DNA from: an uncultured virus (IMG/VR IMGVR_UViG_3300029309_000011)
Taxonomy: Duplodnaviria; Heunggongvirae; Uroviricota; Caudoviricetes
Direction: 5' to 3' (one strand)
DNA: 20,517 bases
IMG/VR virus record: IMGVR_UViG_3300029309_000011
Location: 62,001-82,517 of that record
The position numbers and the translations under genes are program-made. Positions 2,656 to 15,589 of this stretch are shown in pieces; position 1 is the first letter of the stretch, and every line of letters begins with the position of its first letter. The notes beneath the pieces were generated by a model. The model did not search any database and was not told the DNA's origin. It saw only the letters and a list, made by a program, of their open reading frames with translations.

Positions 2656-4179
2656 TCAATACTCTAACTCAAGTTTGCCACGGGTCATTAACCCATTACA
2701 TAGCCATACTAAGGCATCAACACAATCGTCATGTGAGCTAACCCCAAAATTTATAATCTCATCTGTTAAATAACCCATCTTTCGATACTTATTAAAAATG
2801 ATTTTTCTTTGTTCAAAAAGCCCCATGATCCCACGGAATCTTGCAACCTTATCCCCACGAAATCCTTTTACAGGATGCCATATCAAATTATATAATCCTT
2901 GCTCTTGTAAACATATTCTTTTGAAATCTGCCTCTAATGAAGCTTGATAGGCAACCGCCTCTGACCATACATCAATAGAACTACCTGTAGGAAAATAATT
3001 TTTTCCGTCTTTATGAATAATTCCCCATTCTTCCATCATTTCCATCAAAATTTCTAATTTTTCTAAATTTCCCATTACTCGAACTCTTTTACAATCTATG
3101 ATGTGAATTTTATCTTTTACCCTGCCACCCATGACAAAAACTGTATAATCATTTTGTTCTCTAATACCAGCGGATAAATCAACCCCAACTCCTAACGTGT
3201 CAAACTCTGTAGATATAGTTCCTTTAACAATTAAATCTGGAGAAAGAGATAATTCACTAGTTTGCACAATTTGATTTTGATATTGAAAACTAAATGCAAT
3301 TGGGGCTGTTCTTCTCCTTTCACTCAAATATTCGAGTGACCACATATCCGGCCAATAAGATATTTCTTCACCCTCTTCATCAACAGTAATTGCAGATTGA
3401 ACTATTTGTTTCCAGCCACCTGATGGTAAAAAAGTTGTATTGTGAATATCATCATGTCTAAATCTAGTTCCTAAACAAATAGCTCTTGCACCTTCGAACA
3501 TAGTTGGAACAATAACTGCATTCCAGTTATCTTCCATAGCTTGTCGAATATCTTTATTTTTAATATCGTCAGAACTTTTTATTGCGTCATCTATTATGCA
3601 AAGATGTGATCTTTTTGAAGTAACAGCACCTTTTAATCCAGCACAACATACACTAAATTCTTCTTCACCTGTAGATTTTATTCCTGCAAATTTCCAATCA
3701 ATACTCCAGTATTCATTAGAATTTATTCCTTTCGCAATCTTTACCATTGGAAAAATTTCTTTATAAATTTTACTCTCTTCAATAATTCTTTTTATTGCTG
3801 CACTTTTAGGTCTAGCTACATCAACTGTATAAGAAATATATAAAATTTTTAGAGGCATTTTATTTAAGGCATGTATACCAATAGCCCAAGCTGTGTATAG
3901 TCCTAAAACTGTTGATTTGGCAGAACCTCTAGGGGCAAGAATATCGATATTTGGACCGGCAATACCTTTTAAACAAACACTATCAGTATCAGTACAAAGA
4001 TATTTATGCCATTCAAGATGGTGTTTTGCTGGAGGTTTTCCCCCTACAACATCACAAAAATATGCAAAATTTTTCCTAGCCTTTTCAACATCTACATTAG
4101 AAGTTTTTTTTACTACTTGTTGTTTTGCAGCTGCTCTAGCTGTGCGTCTATAAACGCTATAAAGACTTGTACCTGCCAT
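2656..4179 (-). CDS. terL: Terminase large subunit
   Basis: Walker A APRGSAKST, Walker B LCIIDD, coupling motif GTRF, RNase H-like nuclease GVDLS / NDYT / HDDCVDA. Confidence 0.95.
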   Translation of the reverse strand: MAGTSLYSVYRRTARAAAKQQVVKKTSNVDVEKARKNFAYFCDVVGGKPPAKHHLEWHKYLCTDTDSVCLKGIAGPNIDILAPRGSAKSTVLGLYTAWAIGIHALNKMPLKILYISYTVDVARPKSAAIKRIIEESKIYKEIFPMVKIAKGINSNEYWSIDWKFAGIKSTGEEEFSVCCAGLKGAVTSKRSHLCIIDDAIKSSDDIKNKDIRQAMEDNWNAVIVPTMFEGARAICLGTRFRHDDIHNTTFLPSGGWKQIVQSAITVDEEGEEISYWPDMWSLEYLSERRRTAPIAFSFQYQNQIVQTSELSLSPDLIVKGTISTEFDTLGVGVDLSAGIREQNDYTVFVMGGRVKDKIHIIDCKRVRVMGNLEKLEILMEMMEEWGIIHKDGKNYFPTGSSIDVWSEAVAYQASLEADFKRICLQEQGLYNLIWHPVKGFRGDKVARFRGIMGLFEQRKIIFNKYRKMGYLTDEIINFGVSSHDDCVDALVWLCNGLMTRGKLELEY

Positions 4180-4203: not shown

Positions 4204-4689
4204 TTAAGATTCTTCCTGAAGTATTTTTGTCCATACTCCCATAGATGCTTCTTGTAAAGGACCCTCGATAGGATCATCTCGAAAAATAGATAACATTTCT
4301 CTTAATGCTCTATCAGCTCCAGCAAGAATTAATCCTTGTTTATCCATAAGAACTTTTTTATCATCTAATTGTTTTATTGCTCCACGTAATTCTTTTTGTA
4401 ACATTGCAATTCTTGCAGCACCCATATCTTGCTTTACTAAACCCATGTCAATAGCTTGCCTAAGTTTTGAAATGTCATCCTGCATATTATCTATCTCTCT
4501 TTCTAAAACTATGTTGAAATTTCGTTTTTTAAATTCTTTTTCTGTCCATTCGTTACACTCCACTATCGTCCCTTGAAATCCTAAAAATCGGGAAAATAAA
4601 TATATCTGTACTGGAGAAGCTGTCTTTTTACAAAATTCAAGAAAGGATTCACGATCTTTGTTATTTAAAGACTGAATCCATTTCTTCAT
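4204..4689 (-). CDS. Putative terminase small subunit
   Basis: 161-aa helical/coiled-coil ORF immediately upstream of terL; positional inference only. Confidence 0.5.
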   Translation of the reverse strand: MKKWIQSLNNKDRESFLEFCKKTASPVQIYLFSRFLGFQGTIVECNEWTEKEFKKRNFNIVLEREIDNMQDDISKLRQAIDMGLVKQDMGAARIAMLQKELRGAIKQLDDKKVLMDKQGLILAGADRALREMLSIFRDDPIEGPLQEASMGVWTKILQEES

Positions 4690-5537
4690 ACTCTATAAGA
4701 ACCTCTTGCTTGTTGAAAATCTCTATTCTCTTTATAGCGTCTAAACATCTCTCTTTGCAACTCTGTAGATCTTTGTTCTGCTGCTGTTCTGCTAACAGTT
4801 GATCTTTGTTCTTGCCCAGTAGTTCTGATGCCAGCTCTCTGTTCCTCCCCAGTAACCCTTGTAGTAGCTCTTGTTTCCTGTCCAGAGGTTCTTCTTAAAG
4901 CTCTATCTTGTTCCCCTGTTGTTCTAATTCCAGCTCTCTGTTCCTCCCCAGTAACCCTAGTAGTCGCTCTAGTTTCTTGTCCAGTAGTTCTTATACCTGC
5001 TCTTTGTTCTTGCCCTGTAGTTCTTATCCCTGCCCTTTGCTGTCTACCAGTCTCTGCTGTTCCAAGACGATCTTGTAGTCCGGTTTCTCTGATGCCGGCT
5101 CTTTGTTCTAAACCTCTTCTCTGTTCAGTTAAACGTGTCTGTGATCCTTCTATTCTTCTTAAATCTCTTTGTTCAGTTCCTTGTGTTCGTAGAATAGACC
5201 TTTCCTGCTCTCCTCTTAGTCCTATTTGCCTTTCTTGTTGATTTGCTAATTGAGCTTGAGTTGCTCTTTCTTGTAAAGCTCTATTTGTTTCTGTAAGCCT
5301 AGTTTCCTGTCCGGCAACTTGTGTAGATAATCTATTTTCTGCCGCAGTTGCTTGAGTTCTTCTTATGTCTTGAGTAGCAAAGGCTTCTGCGTTTATCCGA
5401 TCTAATTCTGCTCCTAATTCTTGATTCAATCTTTGTTGTTTTTGTGCAGCTTCATTAAGAGCTATTTGTGTGTCTAAACTTTGTGATGGTACCTGAACAA
5501 CTATGTTCCCTAAATCCGATAATGTTTCTTCTTCCAT
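4686..5537 (-). CDS. 11-residue-repeat coiled-coil protein, putative virion/DNA-ejection protein
   Basis: Tandem hendecads such as EQRAGIRTTGQ, ETRATTRVTGE, QDRALRRTSGQ; 4-nt overlap with the next gene. Confidence 0.75.
   Translation of the reverse strand: MEEETLSDLGNIVVQVPSQSLDTQIALNEAAQKQQRLNQELGAELDRINAEAFATQDIRRTQATAAENRLSTQVAGQETRLTETNRALQERATQAQLANQQERQIGLRGEQERSILRTQGTEQRDLRRIEGSQTRLTEQRRGLEQRAGIRETGLQDRLGTAETGRQQRAGIRTTGQEQRAGIRTTGQETRATTRVTGEEQRAGIRTTGEQDRALRRTSGQETRATTRVTGEEQRAGIRTTGQEQRSTVSRTAAEQRSTELQREMFRRYKENRDFQQARGSYRV
4760..5330 (-). repeat. 33-nt-period coding tandem repeat with a 99-nt higher-order duplication
   Basis: Exact 29-mer ccagctctctgttcctccccagtaaccct at 4831 and 4930 (offset 99). 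Boundaries approximate. Confidence 0.9.
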
Positions 5538-6499: not shown

Positions 6500-6500
6500 C

Positions 6501-7274
6501 TTAGTAGTTGTACTGTTGAGTTAAAGCTTGACCAGCTTGCTGGGCAGCTGTAGTTCCCAAGTTTCTTGTAGCATCAGCCATCCCTAGAGTCAATGCTGCA
6601 TTAGTTGCAATATTTTGAGCAATACCTCTTGAAGCCATGCTTCTAGCAAAGTCATCTTTCTTAGCCTGCTCAGAAAACTTACGTAATGTAGGTAGAACAA
6701 TGTTTGTTGCATCTCTTAAAGATTGAGCATCTTTTTGAGTTCTTAATCTTCTACCAGCATCTAAACCAAGTGGGCTAACAACATCAAGAGGATAACCAGT
6801 TGGACCTACATTTCCATATGGTCCCATCCCTGGTGGTAAAGGAACTCCTCCCATACCTTCATTACCAATCGTTCCATATCCTGCTAATCCAAGAGCTCCA
6901 CTAGCAACATTCTTAGTTGGTCCACCTAAAACATTAGCTGCTGATCCTCCAGCAAGGGCACCTAATCCTAATGGAATTCCAGCTTGAGCCACACCCTGTA
7001 ATGCTGCTATATTTCCTGGAGTTAAACCTGCTTTTGTTCCTGCAGAAAATATTCCTTTAAGTGCTGGTTTTGTTGCCATTCCAGCTGCAGAGCCTAAACC
7101 TAAAGTACCTATAGCTCCTAATCCGCCACCAACTACAGCTCCTCCTAAATCTCCTCTCATTAATGAAGGGAGTGCACCTGAAGTAATACCAGCTGCTCTA
7201 AGAAGGAAAGGTAATTTAGCTGCACCTACTTTAGCCAATGGTGCCAGAAACATACCTGCTAACGGAATTCCCAT
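6501..7274 (-). CDS. Gly/Ala-rich hydrophobic protein, putative membrane-penetrating ejection/pilot protein
   Basis: Glycine-zipper segments (GDLGGAVVGGGLGAIGTLGLG, GIPLGLGALAGG) followed by an A/Q-rich helix. Function inferred. Confidence 0.65.
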   Translation of the reverse strand: MGIPLAGMFLAPLAKVGAAKLPFLLRAAGITSGALPSLMRGDLGGAVVGGGLGAIGTLGLGSAAGMATKPALKGIFSAGTKAGLTPGNIAALQGVAQAGIPLGLGALAGGSAANVLGGPTKNVASGALGLAGYGTIGNEGMGGVPLPPGMGPYGNVGPTGYPLDVVSPLGLDAGRRLRTQKDAQSLRDATNIVLPTLRKFSEQAKKDDFARSMASRGIAQNIATNAALTLGMADATRNLGTTAAQQAGQALTQQYNY

Positions 7275-7312
7275 TTTCTCTTTTATAAAATTCTTATTAG
7301 CAATATTCTAAA

Positions 7313-7537
7313 TTAACTATTCTTTGCCTTTAGTTCTTTTTTTGCTTCTCTCATATATTCATATAAAACGTCCATATTTAACATCAAAATACCATCGATT
7401 TCTACAACAGCCTCTGGAATAATTTCTTGTACCTGTTGAGCAGAAAAACCTGCCCTTAACTTTTGTTCTGGATCAAGTTCTTTTTTATATCTAAACTGTA
7501 TAGGTTGTAATTTTTTTAATTTCTCAAGAGCACTCAT
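7313..7537 (-). CDS. Stand-alone C-terminal part of a Peptidase_S74 (intramolecular chaperone) domain
   Basis: ALEKLKKLQPIQFRYK...RAGFSAQQVQEIIPEAV plus terminal coiled coil match the S74 consensus; the S-D-x-R-L-K start is absent. Confidence 0.85.
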   Translation of the reverse strand: MSALEKLKKLQPIQFRYKKELDPEQKLRAGFSAQQVQEIIPEAVVEIDGILMLNMDVLYEYMREAKKELKAKNS

Positions 7538-8153
7538 TTAAATCTTTTACAAAGAAAGCACATTCTGATAATACGTCATTTACCTCTGATTTTTGTAAGA
7601 GAGTAATATCCTCTTTTAATCTGATATCACAGAGAAATCCGCCTAACACTCCTCCAACTATTCCTCCTACTCCTGGGAAAAGTGCATTACCAAGTACTGA
7701 ACCAGCCATTCTGCCAACACTACTCTTAGCTTGTCTTGCTTCGGCTGCTTTTTGTATTTCTTGTTGATTTTTTAGGGCTATTGCTTCATTCACAGCATTA
7801 TTATTTCCTCTCCGAATAGAAAGGTTAGGTCCAACTTGAGAAAATCCAGAATCACCTCCTTTTCCCAAACCAGAAACAAAATCAAAAAATCTTTCTTGCG
7901 AACTTTTTTCTACTGGTCTGTATGTTTTGTAGGGATCTTCATCTGTAAACATTTTTTTAAGTGCTTCGTTTTGTGTAAATCCTCTATCTATAAATTTATC
8001 TAAAAATGATTTCTCTTTTCCTGGAGGAGAATAAATATCACCAAAATCTGGCATATTTTCAACATAATCTTTTGCTTTTGGACCGGTAAAAAATGGTGAA
8101 GGACTTTTTCTCTCCTGTAATAGTCCAAAAAAGCTAGGCATCGAATCTGTCAT
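7524..8153 (-). CDS. Putative virion/ejection protein ending in a glycine zipper plus S74-like CDIRLKEDI motif
   Basis: C-terminus GRMAGSVLGNALFPGVGGIVGGVLGGFL-CDIRLKEDI; AAAGGA SD-like sequence upstream. Confidence 0.75.
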   Translation of the reverse strand: MTDSMPSFFGLLQERKSPSPFFTGPKAKDYVENMPDFGDIYSPPGKEKSFLDKFIDRGFTQNEALKKMFTDEDPYKTYRPVEKSSQERFFDFVSGLGKGGDSGFSQVGPNLSIRRGNNNAVNEAIALKNQQEIQKAAEARQAKSSVGRMAGSVLGNALFPGVGGIVGGVLGGFLCDIRLKEDITLLQKSEVNDVLSECAFFVKDLNECS

Positions 8154-8185
8154 AAAATTATCCTTTTTTATAAATTATAAAATCC

Positions 8186-8731
8186 CTACGCACGAAGTCC
8201 TGTTCCATATAACCCTCTTCCAAATATACCTACCTCATCTAAAATACTTTTTTCAAAGGCTCTATCTCCCATACCACCATATAAAGATCCCGGATATTGT
8301 GCTCCTGGAACTCTAGACTCAGCTCTTGCTTGTACCAGCATCATGTCATGCATAAACTTCTGATTCTGTAATTGCTGCTGCTGTAAAAGAGCCTGCATTT
8401 CAGCATTTCCTAGTCCAGAAGTCATGGGTTGACTATATTCAGATTGTTGATCCATCATATTAGCTGCTGCAAAACCTGTTCCTATCACTGCTGCTTGACC
8501 AGCTAATTTGCCTACCTGCGGAACTACAGAACTAGGATTATTTCTAAGTAATCTTGGAACTTCTTTTCCAACTTTTCCTGCTAATTCTGGAGCAAACCTT
8601 TGGACTCCATAATTCAAAGCAGCTGTTGCAGCATCCTGTCCTACCTTTCCACCAATATCTAAAGCTTTATCTAAATATCCACCAAGCTGACTTCCAGCAG
8701 TTCTTAAAAAACTTTTTGCTATTTGATTCAT
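8186..8731 (-). CDS. Hypothetical Gly/Ala/Gln-rich protein (putative virion protein)
   Basis: 181-aa ORF, co-oriented, 2-nt gap to upstream gene. Confidence 0.7.
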   Translation of the reverse strand: MNQIAKSFLRTAGSQLGGYLDKALDIGGKVGQDAATAALNYGVQRFAPELAGKVGKEVPRLLRNNPSSVVPQVGKLAGQAAVIGTGFAAANMMDQQSEYSQPMTSGLGNAEMQALLQQQQLQNQKFMHDMMLVQARAESRVPGAQYPGSLYGGMGDRAFEKSILDEVGIFGRGLYGTGLRA

Positions 8732-8733
8732 AA

Positions 8734-9213
8734 TTACACTGCCACCGAGTTGCTTGGGAATTTACCAGCTACATTTGGATCTGAGTACCCATTTCCACTT
8801 GCTGCTGGAGAGGATACTAAACCAGTTGGAGCCATACTATCCTGTGTTATTAGTCTATCAGCCTCAACTAATCCTCGACCTCCAGCTGTGTCAGCTCCAA
8901 AGTAAGGATCATATTTAGACATCCATACATCAACTCTTTGGGAAATACTAGGATCTTGGAAGGTGTTACCACCAAATTGTGCTTTAAAATTATAATCTGC
9001 ATTCGCAGTTTCAGCTGAAGTATCTGGAAACTCCTGATAAAATTGATCACTTCTAACATTTTCGTTAAATTTTCCACGAAATGGATCAGGGTCATTAACA
9101 TTATATCTTGGCTTTGATGGACCTGTAAAGAATTGAGCAACAGGTTTATTCTCTCTATAAGCCTTATCTTGCGGTGAAGTTAATCTTCTATTTAGGTTAG
9201 TAACAACGACCAT
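8734..9213 (-). CDS. Hypothetical protein
   Basis: 159-aa ORF tightly packed in the late operon. Confidence 0.7.
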   Translation of the reverse strand: MVVVTNLNRRLTSPQDKAYRENKPVAQFFTGPSKPRYNVNDPDPFRGKFNENVRSDQFYQEFPDTSAETANADYNFKAQFGGNTFQDPSISQRVDVWMSKYDPYFGADTAGGRGLVEADRLITQDSMAPTGLVSSPAASGNGYSDPNVAGKFPSNSVAV

Positions 9214-9216
9214 AGT

Positions 9217-9405
9217 TTAAGATTTAAATAGTGCTTTCTCTAATTGTGCAACAAGTAAATCATCAACCTCATTTCCAGTTTTAGCTGCAGCCTTTTTTAA
9301 AATAGAAACTACAAACTTTTTTATCACTTCATCAAGGTCTTCAGGTATGTTATCAACAGCTTTGTTGATAATGTTAATTGCAATTGGGAGTAAAAATTTA
9401 GTCAT
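9217..9405 (-). CDS. Small amphipathic helical protein
   Basis: 62 aa with KTGNEVDD motif, resembling small T.N..DD proteins I associate with cyanophages; function unknown. Confidence 0.7.
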   Translation of the reverse strand: MTKFLLPIAINIINKAVDNIPEDLDEVIKKFVVSILKKAAAKTGNEVDDLLVAQLEKALFKS

Positions 9406-9439
9406 AATTGTTTGTTCGTTAAGTCTAATTTAGCAAAGG

Positions 9440-10921
9440 TCACATTATGATATCACCGAGATCAGCCTGACCTTGCACTATTCTTGCTTTTGGAGAAAGA
9501 AATTCGAAAATTTCGCCTGCTTTTCTTTTTTTACCTGGTTTTGCTTCCTCCATTCCTCTATCCATATATGTATCAAAAGTGCTCGCATCTAATGACCCTT
9601 GAATGATATCTTCTGCTCTGGGAGCTACACCAAAACCATAAGTGGTGGCTTTTGTTGGTGACTGATCAATTGGTCTATTTGCCAAAACAAAACCTACTTG
9701 AGAATCACCATTGGTTGCTGGAATTCGTGTAATACCTAATGACTGATTACCTCTTTGACCTCTGACTATATCTGATCTAGCTCCCTCTACAAATTGAGCC
9801 ATAAAATTATCTCTTGCCATTCTTTTTTTAGCAGTTTTCTCTTTAAGTCTCATACGTGCAGCATCTCTTTCTTCTTGTGGTATTCCTGCTTGTATAGCTT
9901 CAAATGTTGATTGATCTTTTCCTGCTAATACATTAGGACTCCTTCCAACTTGCATTTCACTTGGTGTAGGAGCTTCATTGACAATTTGATCAATAACATT
10001 TTTATTTCTTTCCATAGCATCTAACTTTCGCATCTCTCGATGAAAATTATTTATATCTCTAGTTTGTTTATTTACAATTCCAGGAAGATTATTATCATCT
10101 TCGCCACCAACAATATCAGGATGATCTAATAATGGTGAGCTATCTCCAATACGTGGTTCAGCACTTATTCTTTCCCCTATTGCCCCTAGTAATGCTTGAT
10201 CAAGTCCTTTTTGTGACATAAATTTGTTTAAATCATTTTTACCTAATGCTGAGCCCTCCATGCCAGATCTCATTTGACTTTCTACCTGTACTGGGTCGGT
10301 AAATCCACTGGGTCTGCTATCTTGAAACTCACTGAGAACCTCTGCAACATTTGGATTTTCATCTACTACCTGTGATCCCTGTTCAATCTTTCTGTTAACA
10401 ATATTTGATGAAGTTTGATTTGGTACAAAATCTTGACCATAATAGTCCGCAGTCGTTCCATCTATTAAAGATTGGTAATAATCAGGCAAAGCTTGACTTA
10501 AGTCAATTTTTTGTACCCCAGAATTTGCCATTCTTGCTAAATCTTTTCTGCCCTCCATCTCTATAGACTTTCTTTTTGTTTTTTCCTGTTCTATCTGTAA
10601 TTCTTCAGAAGCTTGAACTGGATCACTAGTGGTAGCAGCCTCAGACTTAGTTTTATCCGACTGATTTCTTAATTGTTCTTGTATTCTTGCTTGTTCTGCC
10701 ATACTTTCAGCAACCATTGGTGCTCCTATAGCCATAACAGCACTTTTCCCAATATTTTTTACTAAATTTCCTGTTTTTTCTAATAAATTTGGTTTTCTTG
10801 CAAAATTTTTGGTAAATTCAAATACTTCAGGAGCCATTTGCATGCGAGACATAGCATCAGAAGGCATTGGAGTACCAGTCATCCGGGAATATAGTTCAAA
10901 ATCTCGTGGCGAAACAGGCAT
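9440..10921 (-). CDS. Hypothetical protein, first gene of leftward operon (putative virion protein)
   Basis: 493-aa ORF; largely low-complexity/disordered centre; no recognised motif. Confidence 0.75.
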   Translation of the reverse strand: MPVSPRDFELYSRMTGTPMPSDAMSRMQMAPEVFEFTKNFARKPNLLEKTGNLVKNIGKSAVMAIGAPMVAESMAEQARIQEQLRNQSDKTKSEAATTSDPVQASEELQIEQEKTKRKSIEMEGRKDLARMANSGVQKIDLSQALPDYYQSLIDGTTADYYGQDFVPNQTSSNIVNRKIEQGSQVVDENPNVAEVLSEFQDSRPSGFTDPVQVESQMRSGMEGSALGKNDLNKFMSQKGLDQALLGAIGERISAEPRIGDSSPLLDHPDIVGGEDDNNLPGIVNKQTRDINNFHREMRKLDAMERNKNVIDQIVNEAPTPSEMQVGRSPNVLAGKDQSTFEAIQAGIPQEERDAARMRLKEKTAKKRMARDNFMAQFVEGARSDIVRGQRGNQSLGITRIPATNGDSQVGFVLANRPIDQSPTKATTYGFGVAPRAEDIIQGSLDASTFDTYMDRGMEEAKPGKKRKAGEIFEFLSPKARIVQGQADLGDIIM

Positions 10922-14306: not shown

Positions 14307-14477
14307 ATGAAAAGAAGATACATTGATGCTTATTACAATCTCAGATCTAACACCAGTATAGATCGCTTCAATAGACAAGAATGGAACAATGCATTTAAAG
14401 CTATAGATGATCTAGCAAAAGCGGATCTGGAGGAGCTACAACAACCTAATCAAATCATCAAGGGAGATCTATTATGA
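14307..14477 (+). CDS. Small hypothetical protein (56 aa; not in ORF track)
   Basis: AGGAGG SD; MKRRYIDAYYNLRS...IIKGDLL*; ATGA overlap with the methyltransferase. Confidence 0.75.
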   Translation: MKRRYIDAYYNLRSNTSIDRFNRQEWNNAFKAIDDLAKADLEELQQPNQIIKGDLL

Positions 14478-15589
14478 ATCACCCAGAATTAAAAATCCTA
14501 GATTTATTCTCAGGTATTGGTGGCTTTTCATATGCTGCCGAAAATTTCTTTCAAGGACAATTCAAAACTACTCAATTTGTAGAAATCAATCCTTACTGCC
14601 AAAAAGTCTTATCTAAAAATTTTACAGGAGTACCAATCCATGACAACATCAAAACATTTAAAGCAACAGAGGGACAATTTGACATCATTACAGGAGGATT
14701 TCCCTGTCAGGATATCTCAGTTGCAGGACAACAAAAAGGAATCGGAGAAGGAACTAGGTCAGGATTATTTTACGAGTGCATACGGTTACTTAGGGAAATT
14801 CGACCAAAGTTCGCCATCTTTGAAAATGTTAGAAATTTACTCTCCATTGAAGAAGGGAAAGTATTCCAAGAAGTCCTCTTTCAAATTGCCCAAGCAGGGT
14901 ATGATGCTGAATGGTCAGTTGTTTCAGCAAGAGATGTGGGTGGCTGCCACCTTCGAGAGCGTGTCTGGATCTTATGCTACCCTAGCGACTCCGAATTGCA
15001 TGGACGCACTTCCCCAGAGAGGTTACGATTCGATGCTAAAACAAACTCAGGTACACAGAAAAGGAAGAACAAAACTAAGCAATCTGAGAGAGCAAGTAGA
15101 CCCCAAAGCGAGACAATTATTCGAGGAGTTACAACAGATGAAACTTCCAACTCCAACCAGTCAGGAAGCAGGGAAGGGGGATTTTTTAAAGACACTAGTA
15201 ACCAAAGATGGGAAGCCTGCAAAACTCGGACAGAGAGCATACAATCCGAAGACAGGGAAACACGTTCAGATAACTCTAGACAGAGCAGTAAAAATGAATC
15301 TACCAACACCAACATCAAGGGATTGGAAGGACTCAGGGGAGAACATGAACTACAAGAAAGCTGCGGAGAAGAAAAGGCTCGTTGGCGTACTCAACCATAC
15401 ACACTCAGACCTGACTGGAGAAGATACGACTCTGAACCCTGCCTTCGTAGAAGAAATGATGGGGTTCCCAATAGGATGGACGCAAATTGGAGAAACAGAA
15501 AAGAAAGAATAATCTGTTTAGGTAATGCTGTAACACCTCAGCAAGCTGCCATCCCACTAGGGAGAATCATTGACCTTATCAAGTCATAA
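14474..15589 (+). CDS. DNA (cytosine-5) methyltransferase, alpha polypeptide
   Basis: Motif I LDLFSGIGG, IV GGFPCQD, VI ENV, VIII RERVW, X RIICLGNAV; no recognisable motif IX, and the variable region is low-complexity. Confidence 0.93.
   Translation: MNHPELKILDLFSGIGGFSYAAENFFQGQFKTTQFVEINPYCQKVLSKNFTGVPIHDNIKTFKATEGQFDIITGGFPCQDISVAGQQKGIGEGTRSGLFYECIRLLREIRPKFAIFENVRNLLSIEEGKVFQEVLFQIAQAGYDAEWSVVSARDVGGCHLRERVWILCYPSDSELHGRTSPERLRFDAKTNSGTQKRKNKTKQSERASRPQSETIIRGVTTDETSNSNQSGSREGGFFKDTSNQRWEACKTRTESIQSEDRETRSDNSRQSSKNESTNTNIKGLEGLRGEHELQESCGEEKARWRTQPYTLRPDWRRYDSEPCLRRRNDGVPNRMDANWRNRKERIICLGNAVTPQQAAIPLGRIIDLIKS
14640..15512 (+). CDS. Nested +1-frame ORF, putative methyltransferase beta polypeptide (motif IX-like)
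   Basis: 290 codons open wholly inside the MTase; AGGAG at 14626-30, 9 nt before ATG; L(A/P)TP modules; LNPAFVEEMMGFPIGWT at C-terminus. Confidence 0.75.
   Translation: MTTSKHLKQQRDNLTSLQEDFPVRISQLQDNKKESEKELGQDYFTSAYGYLGKFDQSSPSLKMLEIYSPLKKGKYSKKSSFKLPKQGMMLNGQLFQQEMWVAATFESVSGSYATLATPNCMDALPQRGYDSMLKQTQVHRKGRTKLSNLREQVDPKARQLFEELQQMKLPTPTSQEAGKGDFLKTLVTKDGKPAKLGQRAYNPKTGKHVQITLDRAVKMNLPTPTSRDWKDSGENMNYKKAAEKKRLVGVLNHTHSDLTGEDTTLNPAFVEEMMGFPIGWTQIGETEKKE

What the first reader, a model, noticed from the sequence alone, without database searches (positions are those of the whole stretch)
7313..7720. Peptidase_S74 autocleavage domain split over two genes, with Cys at the catalytic Ser position
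Seen: ORF 7524-8153 ends with a glycine zipper, then CDIRLKEDI (Cys codon 7631-7629) and a ~25-aa tail. The overlapping +1-frame ORF 7313-7537 begins MSALEKLKKLQP, the sequence that normally follows SDxRLKxxI. A TAA lies directly before its ATG, and the extra tail has no counterpart in a contiguous domain, which argues against a simple one-base indel. Known: S74 intramolecular chaperones self-cleave in cis through a Ser-Lys dyad in SDxRxK. Inference: a bipartite, trans-complementing chaperone/protease with a Cys-Lys dyad that matures an ejection protein by exposing its glycine-zipper C-terminus. I know of no description of this arrangement.
Basis: partly seen in the sequence, partly recalled or inferred. 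Interest (0 to 1): 0.8.

Follow-up and report, generated by a model that had tools for sequence, protein, structure and literature searches.

The report
Two-gene split self-cleaving chaperone module
Uncultured marine phages related to cyanophage S-EIV1 encode a normally one-piece self-cleaving folding helper (Peptidase_S74) as two overlapping genes, with cysteine in place of the usual catalytic serine; this conserved arrangement was not found in the literature searched.

Summary
ORF A (7524-8153, minus) ends with a glycine zipper, CDIRLKEDI and a 26-residue tail. ORF B (7313-7537, minus) is the body of a Peptidase_S74 domain (Pfam positions 16-57, E 9.6e-11).

It is not an indel or artefact. 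Of 49 related phage loci, 46 have the same split, with Cys exactly 94 nt before the ORF B start and a 14-nt overlap. Contigs from three other sequencing runs bridge the junction without indels.

ORF B keeps its own ATG/GTG start. The tail evolves as protein in ORF A's frame (pN/pS 0.32). One locus joins the genes in a different frame as ATGA. These results reject frameshifting and bypassing.

Profile comparison puts the split between canonical columns 12 and 14. The 23-residue extension has no counterpart.

Natural variants end ORF A at or next to the Cys position, with or without ORF B. This fits removal of the tail.

Cleavage, trans-complementation and the "ejection protein" role remain inferences. 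I rate it a new variant of a known kind.

The parts
7524..8153 (-). ORF A, 209 aa. It has a low-complexity N-terminal part, a C-terminal glycine zipper, and a 35-aa Cys tail.
   Evidence: 635 database clusters match its last 50 aa. It has no Pfam or PHROG family apart from weak glycine-zipper-type hits.
7632..7706 (-). Glycine-zipper segment, residues about 150-174 (...MAGSVLGNALFPGVGGIVGGVLGGFL). It ends at the presumed P1 residue, Leu174.
   Evidence: Read directly from the sequence. Weak hits to the membrane families C19orf12 and DUF456. Predicted helical at low confidence. Tail-less homologues end here: GGLF*, GGFM*, GGLFG*.
7596..7631 (-). S74 'cable' motif CDIRLKEDITLL, residues 175-186. 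Cys175 sits at the catalytic Ser position and Lys180 at the dyad Lys position.
   Evidence: hhalign aligns these 12 columns to canonical S74 columns 1-12 (E 3.2e-4, probability 39%). C, D and K are invariant and R is at least 90% conserved in 38 sequences. pN/pS is 0.27.
7527..7595 (-). Family-specific 23-aa extension QKSEVNDVLSECAFFVKDLNECS, residues 187-209, with no counterpart in contiguous S74 domains.
   Evidence: No alignment to canonical S74 or to ORF B (probability 0.8%). pN/pS is 0.32 in frame A, against 1.0 and 1.6 in the other two frames. Residues 52-69 of the 70-aa model are predicted helical at pLDDT about 62. D, L and A are invariant; F, V and K are nearly so.
7524..7537 (-). 14-nt overlap ATGAGTGCTCTTGA, running from the ORF B start codon to the ORF A stop codon.
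   Evidence: Same geometry in 46 of 49 loci. Start codon is GTG in 37 and ATG in 12. The T and G of the start codon are invariant. Contigs of runs X3, X4 and X12 bridge it with no indels.
7313..7537 (-). ORF B, 74 aa. This is the stand-alone body of the S74 chaperone domain (canonical columns 14-90).
   Evidence: Pfam PF13884 positions 16-57, E 9.6e-11. hhalign to canonical domains gives probability 98.8% and E 5e-17. AlphaFold2 pLDDT is 94.4. The top Foldseek match is the MyRF ICA domain 7dc3, TM 0.80. PDB profile hit to 7dc3 at E 6.8e-5.
7288..7315 (-). Conserved intergenic element TAATTTAGAATATTGCTAATAAGAATTT, starting at the ORF B stop codon and lying upstream of the next gene.
   Evidence: Kept almost letter for letter in the window, L008-L016 and L076-L082, including loci that lack ORF B; the first hit listed for L014, L016 and L083 lies elsewhere, and their hits at the expected place were not printed. 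Single copy in the genome at 7 or fewer mismatches. Function unknown.
6501..7274 (-). Downstream 257-aa glycine-rich protein, the conserved neighbour of the module.
   Evidence: Its homologues follow ORF B in L004-L006. They follow ORF A directly in the eight loci that lack the module.

Best explanation
ORF A and ORF B are two separately translated, translationally overlapping genes. Together they make up one Peptidase_S74-type chaperone and autocleavage module.

ORF A carries at its C-terminus only the 12-residue 'cable' that holds the nucleophile and general base (Cys175 and Lys180, in the spacing S/C-D-x-R-x-K). A 23-residue family-specific, probably helical, extension follows it. ORF B is the folded body of the domain.

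Proposed mechanism (inferred):
1. ORF B, made in step with ORF A through the 14-nt overlap, trimerises as S74 bodies do.
2. It captures the tails of ORF A chains. The extension replaces the missing covalent link as a docking element.
3. It positions the cable so that Cys175, activated by Lys180, attacks the Leu174-Cys175 peptide bond.
4. This releases mature ORF A ending in the glycine zipper ...GGFL. The 35-aa peptide leaves with ORF B.

Shown here: the split, its conservation, separate initiation, translation of the tail in ORF A's frame, the exact partition of the domain, the S74 fold of ORF B, and the existence of 'pre-cleaved' natural variants. Inferred: binding, trimerisation, cleavage and its chemistry.
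For: - Conserved architecture. 46 of 49 loci have Cys at -94 nt, a 35-aa tail and a 14-nt overlap. All 120 listed tail homologues, of 635 hits, have the same 35-aa Cys tail, and none is fused.
- Separate initiation of ORF B. The start codon stays ATG or GTG in 49 of 49 loci, while the frame-A residues encoded there vary (NE, RE, RG, HD). An SD-like 4-mer lies upstream in 28 of 37 GTG-start loci. L045 joins the two genes in a different frame as ATGA.
- The tail is translated in frame A. pN/pS is 0.32 for the extension, 0.27 for the cable and 0.33 for ORF B. The extension read in the other two frames gives 1.0 and 1.6. Pooled over 41 unique of 45 sequences.
- Exact partition of the domain. The tail aligns to canonical columns 1-12 and ORF B to columns 14-90 (probability 98.8%).
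- Fold. The ORF B model has pLDDT 94.4 and TM 0.80 to the MyRF ICA domain 7dc3.
- Structural sense. In T5 pb1 the residues after the catalytic Ser form a loop before the first helix of the chaperone. In MyRF the 'cable' threads a 'donut' of six strands. So the split lies at a natural boundary (passages read in PMC4690869 and PMC8326128).
- Catalytic residues. C, D and K are invariant and R is at least 90% conserved in 38 sequences.
- Natural variants ending at the cleavage position. L010 ends ...GGLF* and L015 ...GGLFG*, both with ORF B intact. 8 of 9 homologues of the L010 protein are tail-less. In 8 of 8 loci (L076-L083) both tail and ORF B are absent, and two of them keep a remnant of the ORF B 3' end.
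- Cys also occurs in a contiguous full S74 domain, P0197.
- Independent DNA assemblies bridge the junction without indels.
Against:
- ORF A alone does not reach any Pfam S74 score. The tail-to-S74 profile match covers only 12 columns at 39% probability.
- No biochemical evidence for a Cys nucleophile in this family was found. The papers read describe Ser-Lys only.
- In T5 pb1, and in endoNF as described in the MyRF paper, an Arg of the upstream triple beta-helix takes part in catalysis. ORF A has no such beta-helix; a glycine zipper precedes the site.
- L010 and L015 keep an ORF B under purifying selection (pN/pS 0.08-0.28) without any catalytic tail. ORF B must therefore have a role that does not need cleavage, or the loss is recent.
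- Eight related loci do without the module altogether, so it is dispensable for the mature protein in those lineages.
Confidence: 0.6

Rival explanations
1. The split is real, but the Cys tail is not cleaved. The tail is a permanent docking peptide that recruits ORF B as a stable partner, such as a trimerisation cap on the glycine-zipper end of ORF A. The S74-like motif is then a structural relic or serves another chemistry.
For: Cleavage was not shown. Cys replaces the described Ser, and no upstream beta-helix 'sensor' is present. ORF B persists under purifying selection in L010 and L015, which have no catalytic motif. The extension is conserved as protein, as expected of a binding element.
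Against: C, D and K are invariant and R nearly so, in the exact S74 spacing, across sequences whose synonymous sites are saturated. Homologues stop at or one residue after the Cys position, which is what a removable propeptide predicts. A full contiguous S74 domain with Cys exists.
Confidence: 0.2
2. ORF B is a free-standing chaperone whose main client is not ORF A. Candidates are the neighbouring glycine-rich proteins or other virion proteins. The adjacency with the Cys tail would then be historical.
For: L010 and L015 keep ORF B without the tail. In L045 the module sits on a different, Arg-rich protein elsewhere in a genome whose ORF A homologue is tail-less.
Against: ORF B and the tail co-occur at fixed geometry in 46 of 49 loci. 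They were lost together in 8 of 8 loci L076-L083. In L045 ORF B again follows directly on a Cys tail. The window's genome has exactly one Cys tail and one ORF B.
Confidence: 0.1
3. The two frames are joined during translation, by +1 programmed frameshifting at UCU_UGA_G or by ribosomal bypassing of a roughly 55-nt gap. This would give one contiguous S74-bearing polypeptide.
For: Removing 55 nt would restore a canonical 15-residue spacing (read from the sequence). The site UCU UGA G resembles known +1 shift sites in form (recalled, not tested).
Against: The stop codon and its context vary: TGA, TAA and TAG, preceded by TCT, GCT, CCT, TCG or AAT. Third codon positions across the tail are saturated, so there is no conserved RNA element. 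The tail is under purifying selection as frame-A protein. ORF B keeps a start codon in 49 of 49 loci. L045 has the opposite frame relation with an ATGA overlap. L010 and L015 have no tail to shift from.
Confidence: 0.03
4. Sequencing or assembly error, or a recently broken pseudogene of a contiguous S74 domain.
For: None beyond the a priori frequency of indel errors.
Against: 43 distinct junction sequences in 49 loci from many samples share the architecture. 635 protein clusters match the tail. Contigs from three other runs bridge the junction with no indels. Both parts are under purifying selection. No close relative of ORF B is contiguous: among the 150 representatives listed, those above about 70 bits are short stand-alone proteins or fragments, except the 169-aa chimera-like P0135 and the 7652-aa repetitive P0147. 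The first contiguous Ser-type hit scores 68.7 bits.
Confidence: 0.01

Closest known systems
Peptidase_S74 / C-terminal intramolecular chaperone domain (CIMCD) of phage endosialidases, the T5 L-shaped tail fibre pb1 and phi29-type appendages (Pfam PF13884; PDB 3gw6, 3gud)
   Same: ORF B has the family's sequence profile and fold. The tail has the x-D-x-R-x-K-x-x-I motif in the right place relative to the end of the mature protein. Two ordinary one-piece copies sit on tail-fibre genes of the same genome.
   Different: The domain is divided between two genes at canonical column 13. Cys replaces the catalytic Ser. A 23-aa extension has no counterpart. The client is a small (about 200 aa) low-complexity glycine-zipper protein, not a long beta-helical fibre or spike. 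The module is optional among close relatives.
MyRF ICA domain (PDB 7dc3)
   Same: It is the best structural and PDB-sequence match of ORF B (TM 0.80; E 6.8e-5). According to the MyRF structure paper, cleavage there depends on trimerisation of the ICA body rather than on the upstream stalk (passages read). That is the situation a split form would need.
   Different: MyRF is a one-piece eukaryotic membrane transcription factor with a Ser-Lys dyad. It has no second gene, no Cys and no extension.
Contiguous Cys-type S74 domain (P0197, 901 aa, Laminin_G_3 + YadA-head repeats + PF13884 positions 1-58)
   Same: It has Cys at the nucleophile position followed by D-x-R-x-K (LL|CDARLKE), preceded by a Gly-rich hydrophobic stretch.
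   Different: It is one polypeptide with a canonical fibre or adhesin architecture and no extension. It is not a closer relative of ORF B than Ser-type domains are (E 1.4e-7).
Separately encoded tail-fibre chaperones (such as T4 gp38/gp57A and Tfa-type assembly proteins) and S74 genes 'adjacent' to fibre genes in polinton-like viruses
   Same: A folding helper is encoded as its own gene next to its client. [quoted passage not shown]
   Different: The T4 and Tfa chaperones are unrelated in sequence and are not autoproteolytic (recalled, not tested here). The polinton-like virus cases are described as whole S74 domains next to a fibre gene, not as a domain cut in two with the catalytic motif left on the client.
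Naturally split inteins (such as DnaE) - analogy only
   Same: A self-processing domain is divided between two genes and reassembles non-covalently, with a Cys nucleophile acting on the adjacent peptide bond (recalled).
   Different: There is no homology. Inteins splice, whereas this module would only cleave. Not tested here.

Membership tests
Peptidase_S74 (PF13884) intramolecular chaperone/autocleavage domain | Sequence match to the Pfam profile above the gathering score | tested here: met
   ORF B scores 42.3 bits against a cut-off of 22, but only over profile positions 16-57 of 58. A genome-wide scan gives positions 15-57. ORF A alone has no hit at E<=1.
Peptidase_S74 (PF13884) intramolecular chaperone/autocleavage domain | Catalytic Ser at the first position of the domain | tested here: not met
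   Cys in 38 of 38 aligned tails and in all 120 listed database tails. Ser is the described nucleophile.
Peptidase_S74 (PF13884) intramolecular chaperone/autocleavage domain | Dyad Lys five residues after the nucleophile, within x-D-x-R-x-K | tested here: met
   D and K are invariant and R is at least 90% conserved in A1. These columns align to canonical columns 1-12.
Peptidase_S74 (PF13884) intramolecular chaperone/autocleavage domain | One polypeptide: the domain lies in cis at the C-terminus of its client | tested here: not met
   Two ORFs with separate starts in 49 of 49 loci. No fused form among the 120 listed tail homologues or among the closest relatives of ORF B.
Peptidase_S74 (PF13884) intramolecular chaperone/autocleavage domain | CIMCD/ICA fold of the body | tested here: met
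   AlphaFold2 pLDDT 94.4. Foldseek gives 7dc3 at TM 0.80 and E 1.6e-4, then 3gud and 3gw6.
Peptidase_S74 (PF13884) intramolecular chaperone/autocleavage domain | Trimerisation and autoproteolytic release | not testable with these tools
The only indirect evidence is homologues ending at the predicted P1 residue.
Programmed +1 frameshift / translational bypass gene | Conserved shift or take-off site and stimulatory element; no independent start for the downstream frame | tested here: not met
   The stop context is variable and third codon positions are saturated. A start codon is conserved in 49 of 49 loci. L045 has a different frame relation.
   No informative Pfam, PHROG or Atlas match. Context only: a block of low-complexity proteins upstream of the terminase and portal-like genes. 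The paper on the nearest cultured phage, S-EIV1, was not held.

The most novel reading that the evidence does not exclude
ORF B is a trans-acting, possibly multi-turnover chaperone-protease. It recognises a portable 35-residue C-terminal tag (a 12-aa Cys-Lys cable plus a 23-aa docking helix) and removes it. The result would be a natural two-component 'tag and trim' maturation system that phages move between unrelated small virion proteins. In L045 it sits on an Arg-rich protein, elsewhere on glycine-zipper proteins. It may also hold hydrophobic, membrane-active C-termini in a soluble trimer until assembly.
Probability: 0.35. Interest if true: 0.8.

Novelty: new variant of a known kind. Interest (0 to 1): 0.66.

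Why it matters
S74 domains are the textbook case of an intramolecular chaperone that works only as part of its client and then cuts itself off.

A widespread natural form (at least 635 protein clusters at 90% identity) separates the catalytic motif from the chaperone body. If it works as proposed, the fold can act between chains. A thiol could then replace the serine. And the client need not be a beta-helical fibre.

Three natural states make this directly testable with a few constructs: tail plus ORF B, ORF B only, and neither.

If cleavage is confirmed, the 35-aa tag with a 74-aa partner would also be a compact candidate tool for trimerisation and traceless C-terminal processing. It would also annotate hundreds of 'hypothetical' genes in an abundant marine cyanophage lineage.

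Tried and rejected
- Complex prediction. Binding is therefore untested.
- Bypassing or a conserved RNA element in the 55-nt 'gap'. Rejected because third codon positions are saturated and frame-A pN/pS is 0.32.
- +1 frameshift. Rejected.
- The extension as a duplicated copy of the ORF B N-terminus, an idea of mine from reading by eye. hhalign of A1 against A2 gives probability 0.8%, so it is not supported.
- One ORF B serving several tailed clients. Only one Cys tail and one ORF B were found in the 82.5-kb genome.
- Cultured relatives:
  - tblastn of ORF A against the phage collection found no match at E<=1.
  - ORF B hits only canonical tail-fibre S74 domains there, at 44% identity or less.
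  - The nearest cultured phage by the portal-like protein is Synechococcus phage S-EIV1, at 52% identity. The region of it that I examined lacks the module.
- ESM Atlas for ORF A returned only unnamed viral clusters.
- Earlier scan notes held nothing relevant.
- RNA evidence. One metatranscriptome contig covers only 7759-7918 inside ORF A. This gives no evidence on transcription or on the junction.
- Low-confidence fold of the ORF A C-terminus (pLDDT 55.8). I used it only for the secondary-structure hint.
- Literature. Searches were poorly constructed and returned unrelated papers. The K1F deep-mutational-scan preprint had no passage on the catalytic Ser. The S-EIV1 paper is not held, so any virion proteomics in it could not be checked.
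- The 'pre-Cys' 20-codon segment gave pN/pS of about 1. That region is not alignable between subfamilies, so the number is meaningless and is not used.
Full report
**1. Observation**

The window is the last 20.5 kb of an 82.5-kb IMG/VR virus record with 35% GC.

- ORF A lies on the minus strand at 7524-8153 and is 209 aa. It ends ...GNALFPGVGGIVGGVLGGFL|CDIRLKEDITLLQKSEVNDVLSECAFFVKDLNECS*.
- ORF B lies on the minus strand at 7313-7537 and is 74 aa. It starts MSALEKLKKLQP.
- The Cys codon is 7631-7629.
- The two ORFs overlap by 14 nt. ORF B is in the +1 frame. A TAA directly precedes its ATG, and more stops lie upstream in that frame.
- Pfam PF13884 matches ORF B residues 3-44 to profile positions 16-57 of 58 (E 9.6e-11, 42.3 bits against a cut-off of 22). 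ORF A has no S74 hit at E<=1.
- The same genome has two ordinary one-piece S74 domains (SSD-x-RDK...) at the ends of 425-aa and 609-aa fibre-like ORFs.

**2. The split is not an error or a pseudogene**

A search of viral contigs with ORF B returned 67 loci.

- L056-L074 are canonical Ser-type domains at the ends of long ORFs.
- L008-L055 plus the window make 49 loci, of which 43 are distinct in junction DNA. These form the split family.
- In 46 of the 49, a C-D-x-R/K-x-K motif begins exactly 94 nt before the ORF B start. The tail is 35 aa, and the ORF A stop lies 11-13 nt inside ORF B.
- A search of the 5.8-billion-protein collection with the last 50 residues of ORF A gave 635 clusters at E<=0.01. 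All 120 that were listed are 114-219 aa and carry no Pfam domain. Each ends with a 35-aa Cys tail, and none is fused. The other 515 were not shown to me.
- Contigs of three other public runs, from samples other than the probable source, bridge 7524-7537. No insertions or deletions were reported.

**3. Two genes, not one recoded gene**

- ORF B's first codon is GTG in 37 loci and ATG in 12. Its T and G are invariant, although the frame-A residues encoded over it vary: N-E, R-E, R-G, H-D.
- 28 of 37 GTG-start loci have a Shine-Dalgarno-like 4-mer at -16 to -4. None of the 12 ATG-start loci does.
- I computed pooled Nei-Gojobori estimates over 41 unique of 45 sequences. L010, L015 and L045 were dropped as non-standard, and L032 for lack of upstream DNA.

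| Segment | pN/pS |
|---|---|
| 13-codon cable | 0.27 |
| 18-codon extension, frame A | 0.32 |
| ORF B | 0.33 |
| Extension, other two frames | 1.0 and 1.6 |

- Third codon positions through the tail are close to saturation. No nucleotide-level element is conserved there, such as a frameshift stimulator or a bypass signal.
- ORF A's stop is TGA, TAA or TAG, in varying context.
- In L045 the same two parts are joined in the other frame relation, with the classic ATGA stop-start overlap.

Together these results exclude a conserved +1 frameshift or a hop.

**4. Where the domain is cut**

I built three alignments: 38 ORF A C-termini (A1), 39 ORF B proteins (A2) and 16 canonical domains (A3).

- hhalign places CD-x-RLK-x-DI-x-PL on canonical columns 1-12 (E 3.2e-4, probability 39%, 12 columns).
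- It places ORF B residues 2-73 on canonical columns 14-90 of 104 (probability 98.8%, E 5e-17).
- The remaining 23 residues of the tail match nothing in the canonical domain or in ORF B (probability 0.8%).
- In A1 the residues C, D, K (the dyad position), L47, D54, L56 and A60 are invariant. R39, D43, F61, V63 and K64 are at least 90% conserved.
- ORF B alone folds with pLDDT 94.4. Its best structural matches are the MyRF ICA domain 7dc3 (TM 0.80, E 1.6e-4), then 3gud and 3gw6. The PDB profile search agrees.
- The 70-aa ORF A C-terminus folds poorly (pLDDT 55.8). The glycine zipper and the extension (model residues 52-69) are predicted helical and the cable is predicted as coil.

The published structures help interpret the cut. 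I read passages of each paper.

- In T5 pb1, the residues after Ser1264 form a loop (1265-1276) before the first helices of the chaperone. Cleavage is between Thr1263 and Ser1264, with Lys1269 as the base (PMC4690869).
- In MyRF, the 'cable' carrying the site threads a 'donut' of six beta-strands. Cleavage needs the trimer (PMC8326128).

The gene boundary thus falls exactly between the cable and the body.

**5. Natural variants that bear on function**

- L010 ends ORF A at ...GGLIGGLF*, exactly where Cys would be. L015 ends it at ...GGIGGLFG*. In both, ORF B is intact. Compared with tail-bearing relatives, ORF B there shows pN/pS of 0.08-0.28 at pS of about 0.45-0.6.
- A protein search with the L010 ORF A gave 9 hits. 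Eight are tail-less and end in GG[FIL][FM](G) or similar. One has the Cys tail.
- Eight further viral loci (L076-L083) have tail-less ORF A homologues followed directly by the 257-aa glycine-rich gene, with no ORF B. L078 and L079 still carry the last codons of ORF B (KAKNS*). This indicates loss of the whole module, from Cys to near the end of ORF B, as a unit.
- L045 and L081 lie on the same contig. That phage has a tail-less ORF A homologue, and its split module sits on a different, Arg-rich protein.
- The window's genome has exactly one Cys tail and one ORF B.

**6. Interpretation**

The simplest reading is a two-chain S74 module. ORF A keeps the catalytic cable plus a docking extension. 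ORF B supplies the chaperone body. After assembly, the Leu174-Cys175 bond is cut. This leaves the same glycine-zipper C-terminus that tail-less homologues encode directly.

What is shown: the split, its conservation, separate translation, the exact partition of the domain, the fold of ORF B, and the optional nature of the module.

What is inferred: binding of the tail to ORF B, trimerisation, cleavage, and thiol chemistry.

Points against, or left open:
- No complex model could be made.
- In T5 pb1, and in endoNF as described in the MyRF paper, an Arg of the upstream beta-helix contributes to catalysis. ORF A has no such helix.
- In L010 and L015, ORF B persists without any catalytic tail. It may therefore have a cleavage-independent role.

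The 'ejection protein' label for ORF A has no support beyond its position. It sits in a block of low-complexity proteins upstream of the terminase (2656-4179) and the portal-like gene (184-2427).

**7. Relation to what is known**

- The papers I read describe S74 as a Ser-Lys, one-polypeptide domain. These were passages of PMC4690869, PMC8326128 and PMC7824862.
- A paper on polinton-like viruses mentions S74 domains fused to, or adjacent to, fibre modules. It does not describe a domain cut in two (passages read).
- Full-text searches gave no paper whose listing or read passages describe a within-domain split or a Cys nucleophile. Searches were uninformative.
- The profile search of 1.84 billion representatives with A2 found 1854 proteins at E<=0.001. 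I classified the best 150:
  - 100 are contiguous with S-D-x-[RK]-x-K.
  - 24 have more than 12 upstream residues but not that strict motif. By eye, most of these have relaxed Ser motifs such as SSARFK.
  - 25 are stand-alone proteins or fragments.
  - 1 is contiguous with Cys: P0197, which carries Laminin_G_3, YadA-head repeats and PF13884 positions 1-58.
- The representatives above about 70 bits are short stand-alone proteins or fragments, with two exceptions: P0135 (169 aa, a likely chimera with a hydrolase fragment) and the 7652-aa repetitive P0147.

Cys-type S74 therefore exists outside the split family but is rare, and the split family has no close contiguous relative.

**8. Host and lineage**

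The portal-like protein is 52% identical to that of Synechococcus phage S-EIV1. The region of S-EIV1 that I examined lacks the module. A small neighbouring ORF (9217-9405) resembles genes of Prochlorococcus myophages. The runs holding the sequence are marine metagenomes.

**9. Verdict**

I rate it a new variant of a known kind: an intermolecular, Cys-type S74 module on small glycine-zipper and low-complexity proteins. It is abundant in an uncultured marine phage clade, and experimental proof of cleavage is outstanding.

Noticed in passing
window 7288-7315 (- strand): The 28-nt intergenic element TAATTTAGAATATTGCTAATAAGAATTT begins at the ORF B stop, about 14 nt upstream of the 257-aa gene. It is kept almost letter for letter in the low-GC subclade, including loci that lack ORF B, while neighbouring coding DNA is saturated at synonymous sites. 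It is single copy in the genome. It could be a promoter or an RNA element; its function is unknown.
   Followed up: partly
window 4686-5537 (- strand): A 283-aa ORF is built largely of Q/R/T/G-rich tandem peptide repeats (TGQEQRAGIRT, TGQETRATTRV and similar) and has no family match.
   Followed up: no
L045 and L081 (same contig, IMGVR_UViG_3300030331_005458): In this phage the split Cys-S74 module sits on a different, strongly Arg-rich protein (...NRARMRRRARNRSRGRGRSM|CDLRFK...) with an ATGA overlap. Its ORF A homologue elsewhere in the genome is tail-less. This suggests the two-gene module moves between client proteins.
   Followed up: partly
P0197 (protein): This 901-aa Laminin_G_3 and YadA-head fibre-like protein has a complete contiguous PF13884 domain with Cys instead of Ser at position 1.
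   Followed up: partly
G000:C1:39576-44650 (loci L001, L002; outside the window): Two adjacent fibre-like genes (425 and 609 aa open frames) share near-identical canonical Ser-type S74 ends (SSDQRDKTDI and SSDSRDKTDV). The phage therefore uses both the one-piece and the split form.
   Followed up: partly
window 9217-9405 (- strand): A 62-aa ORF (phrog_402) is about 72% identical in DNA to hypothetical genes of the Prochlorococcus myophages P-HM1, P-HM2, MED4-213 and P-SSM7. It was the only stretch of window 6500-9500 with a DNA match in the phage collection.
   Followed up: no
P0131 and P0135 (proteins): These are variant ORF B forms. P0131 is 108 aa with a 31-aa N-terminal extension and no catalytic motif. 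P0135 is 169 aa, with the ORF B N-terminal half followed by an alpha/beta-hydrolase fragment, and may be a chimeric contig.
   Followed up: no
window 14474-15589 (+ strand): A DNA methyltransferase gene (phrog_363, E 1.7e-67) lies on the opposite strand block. A 290-aa ORF (14640-15512) lies within it in another frame.
   Followed up: no
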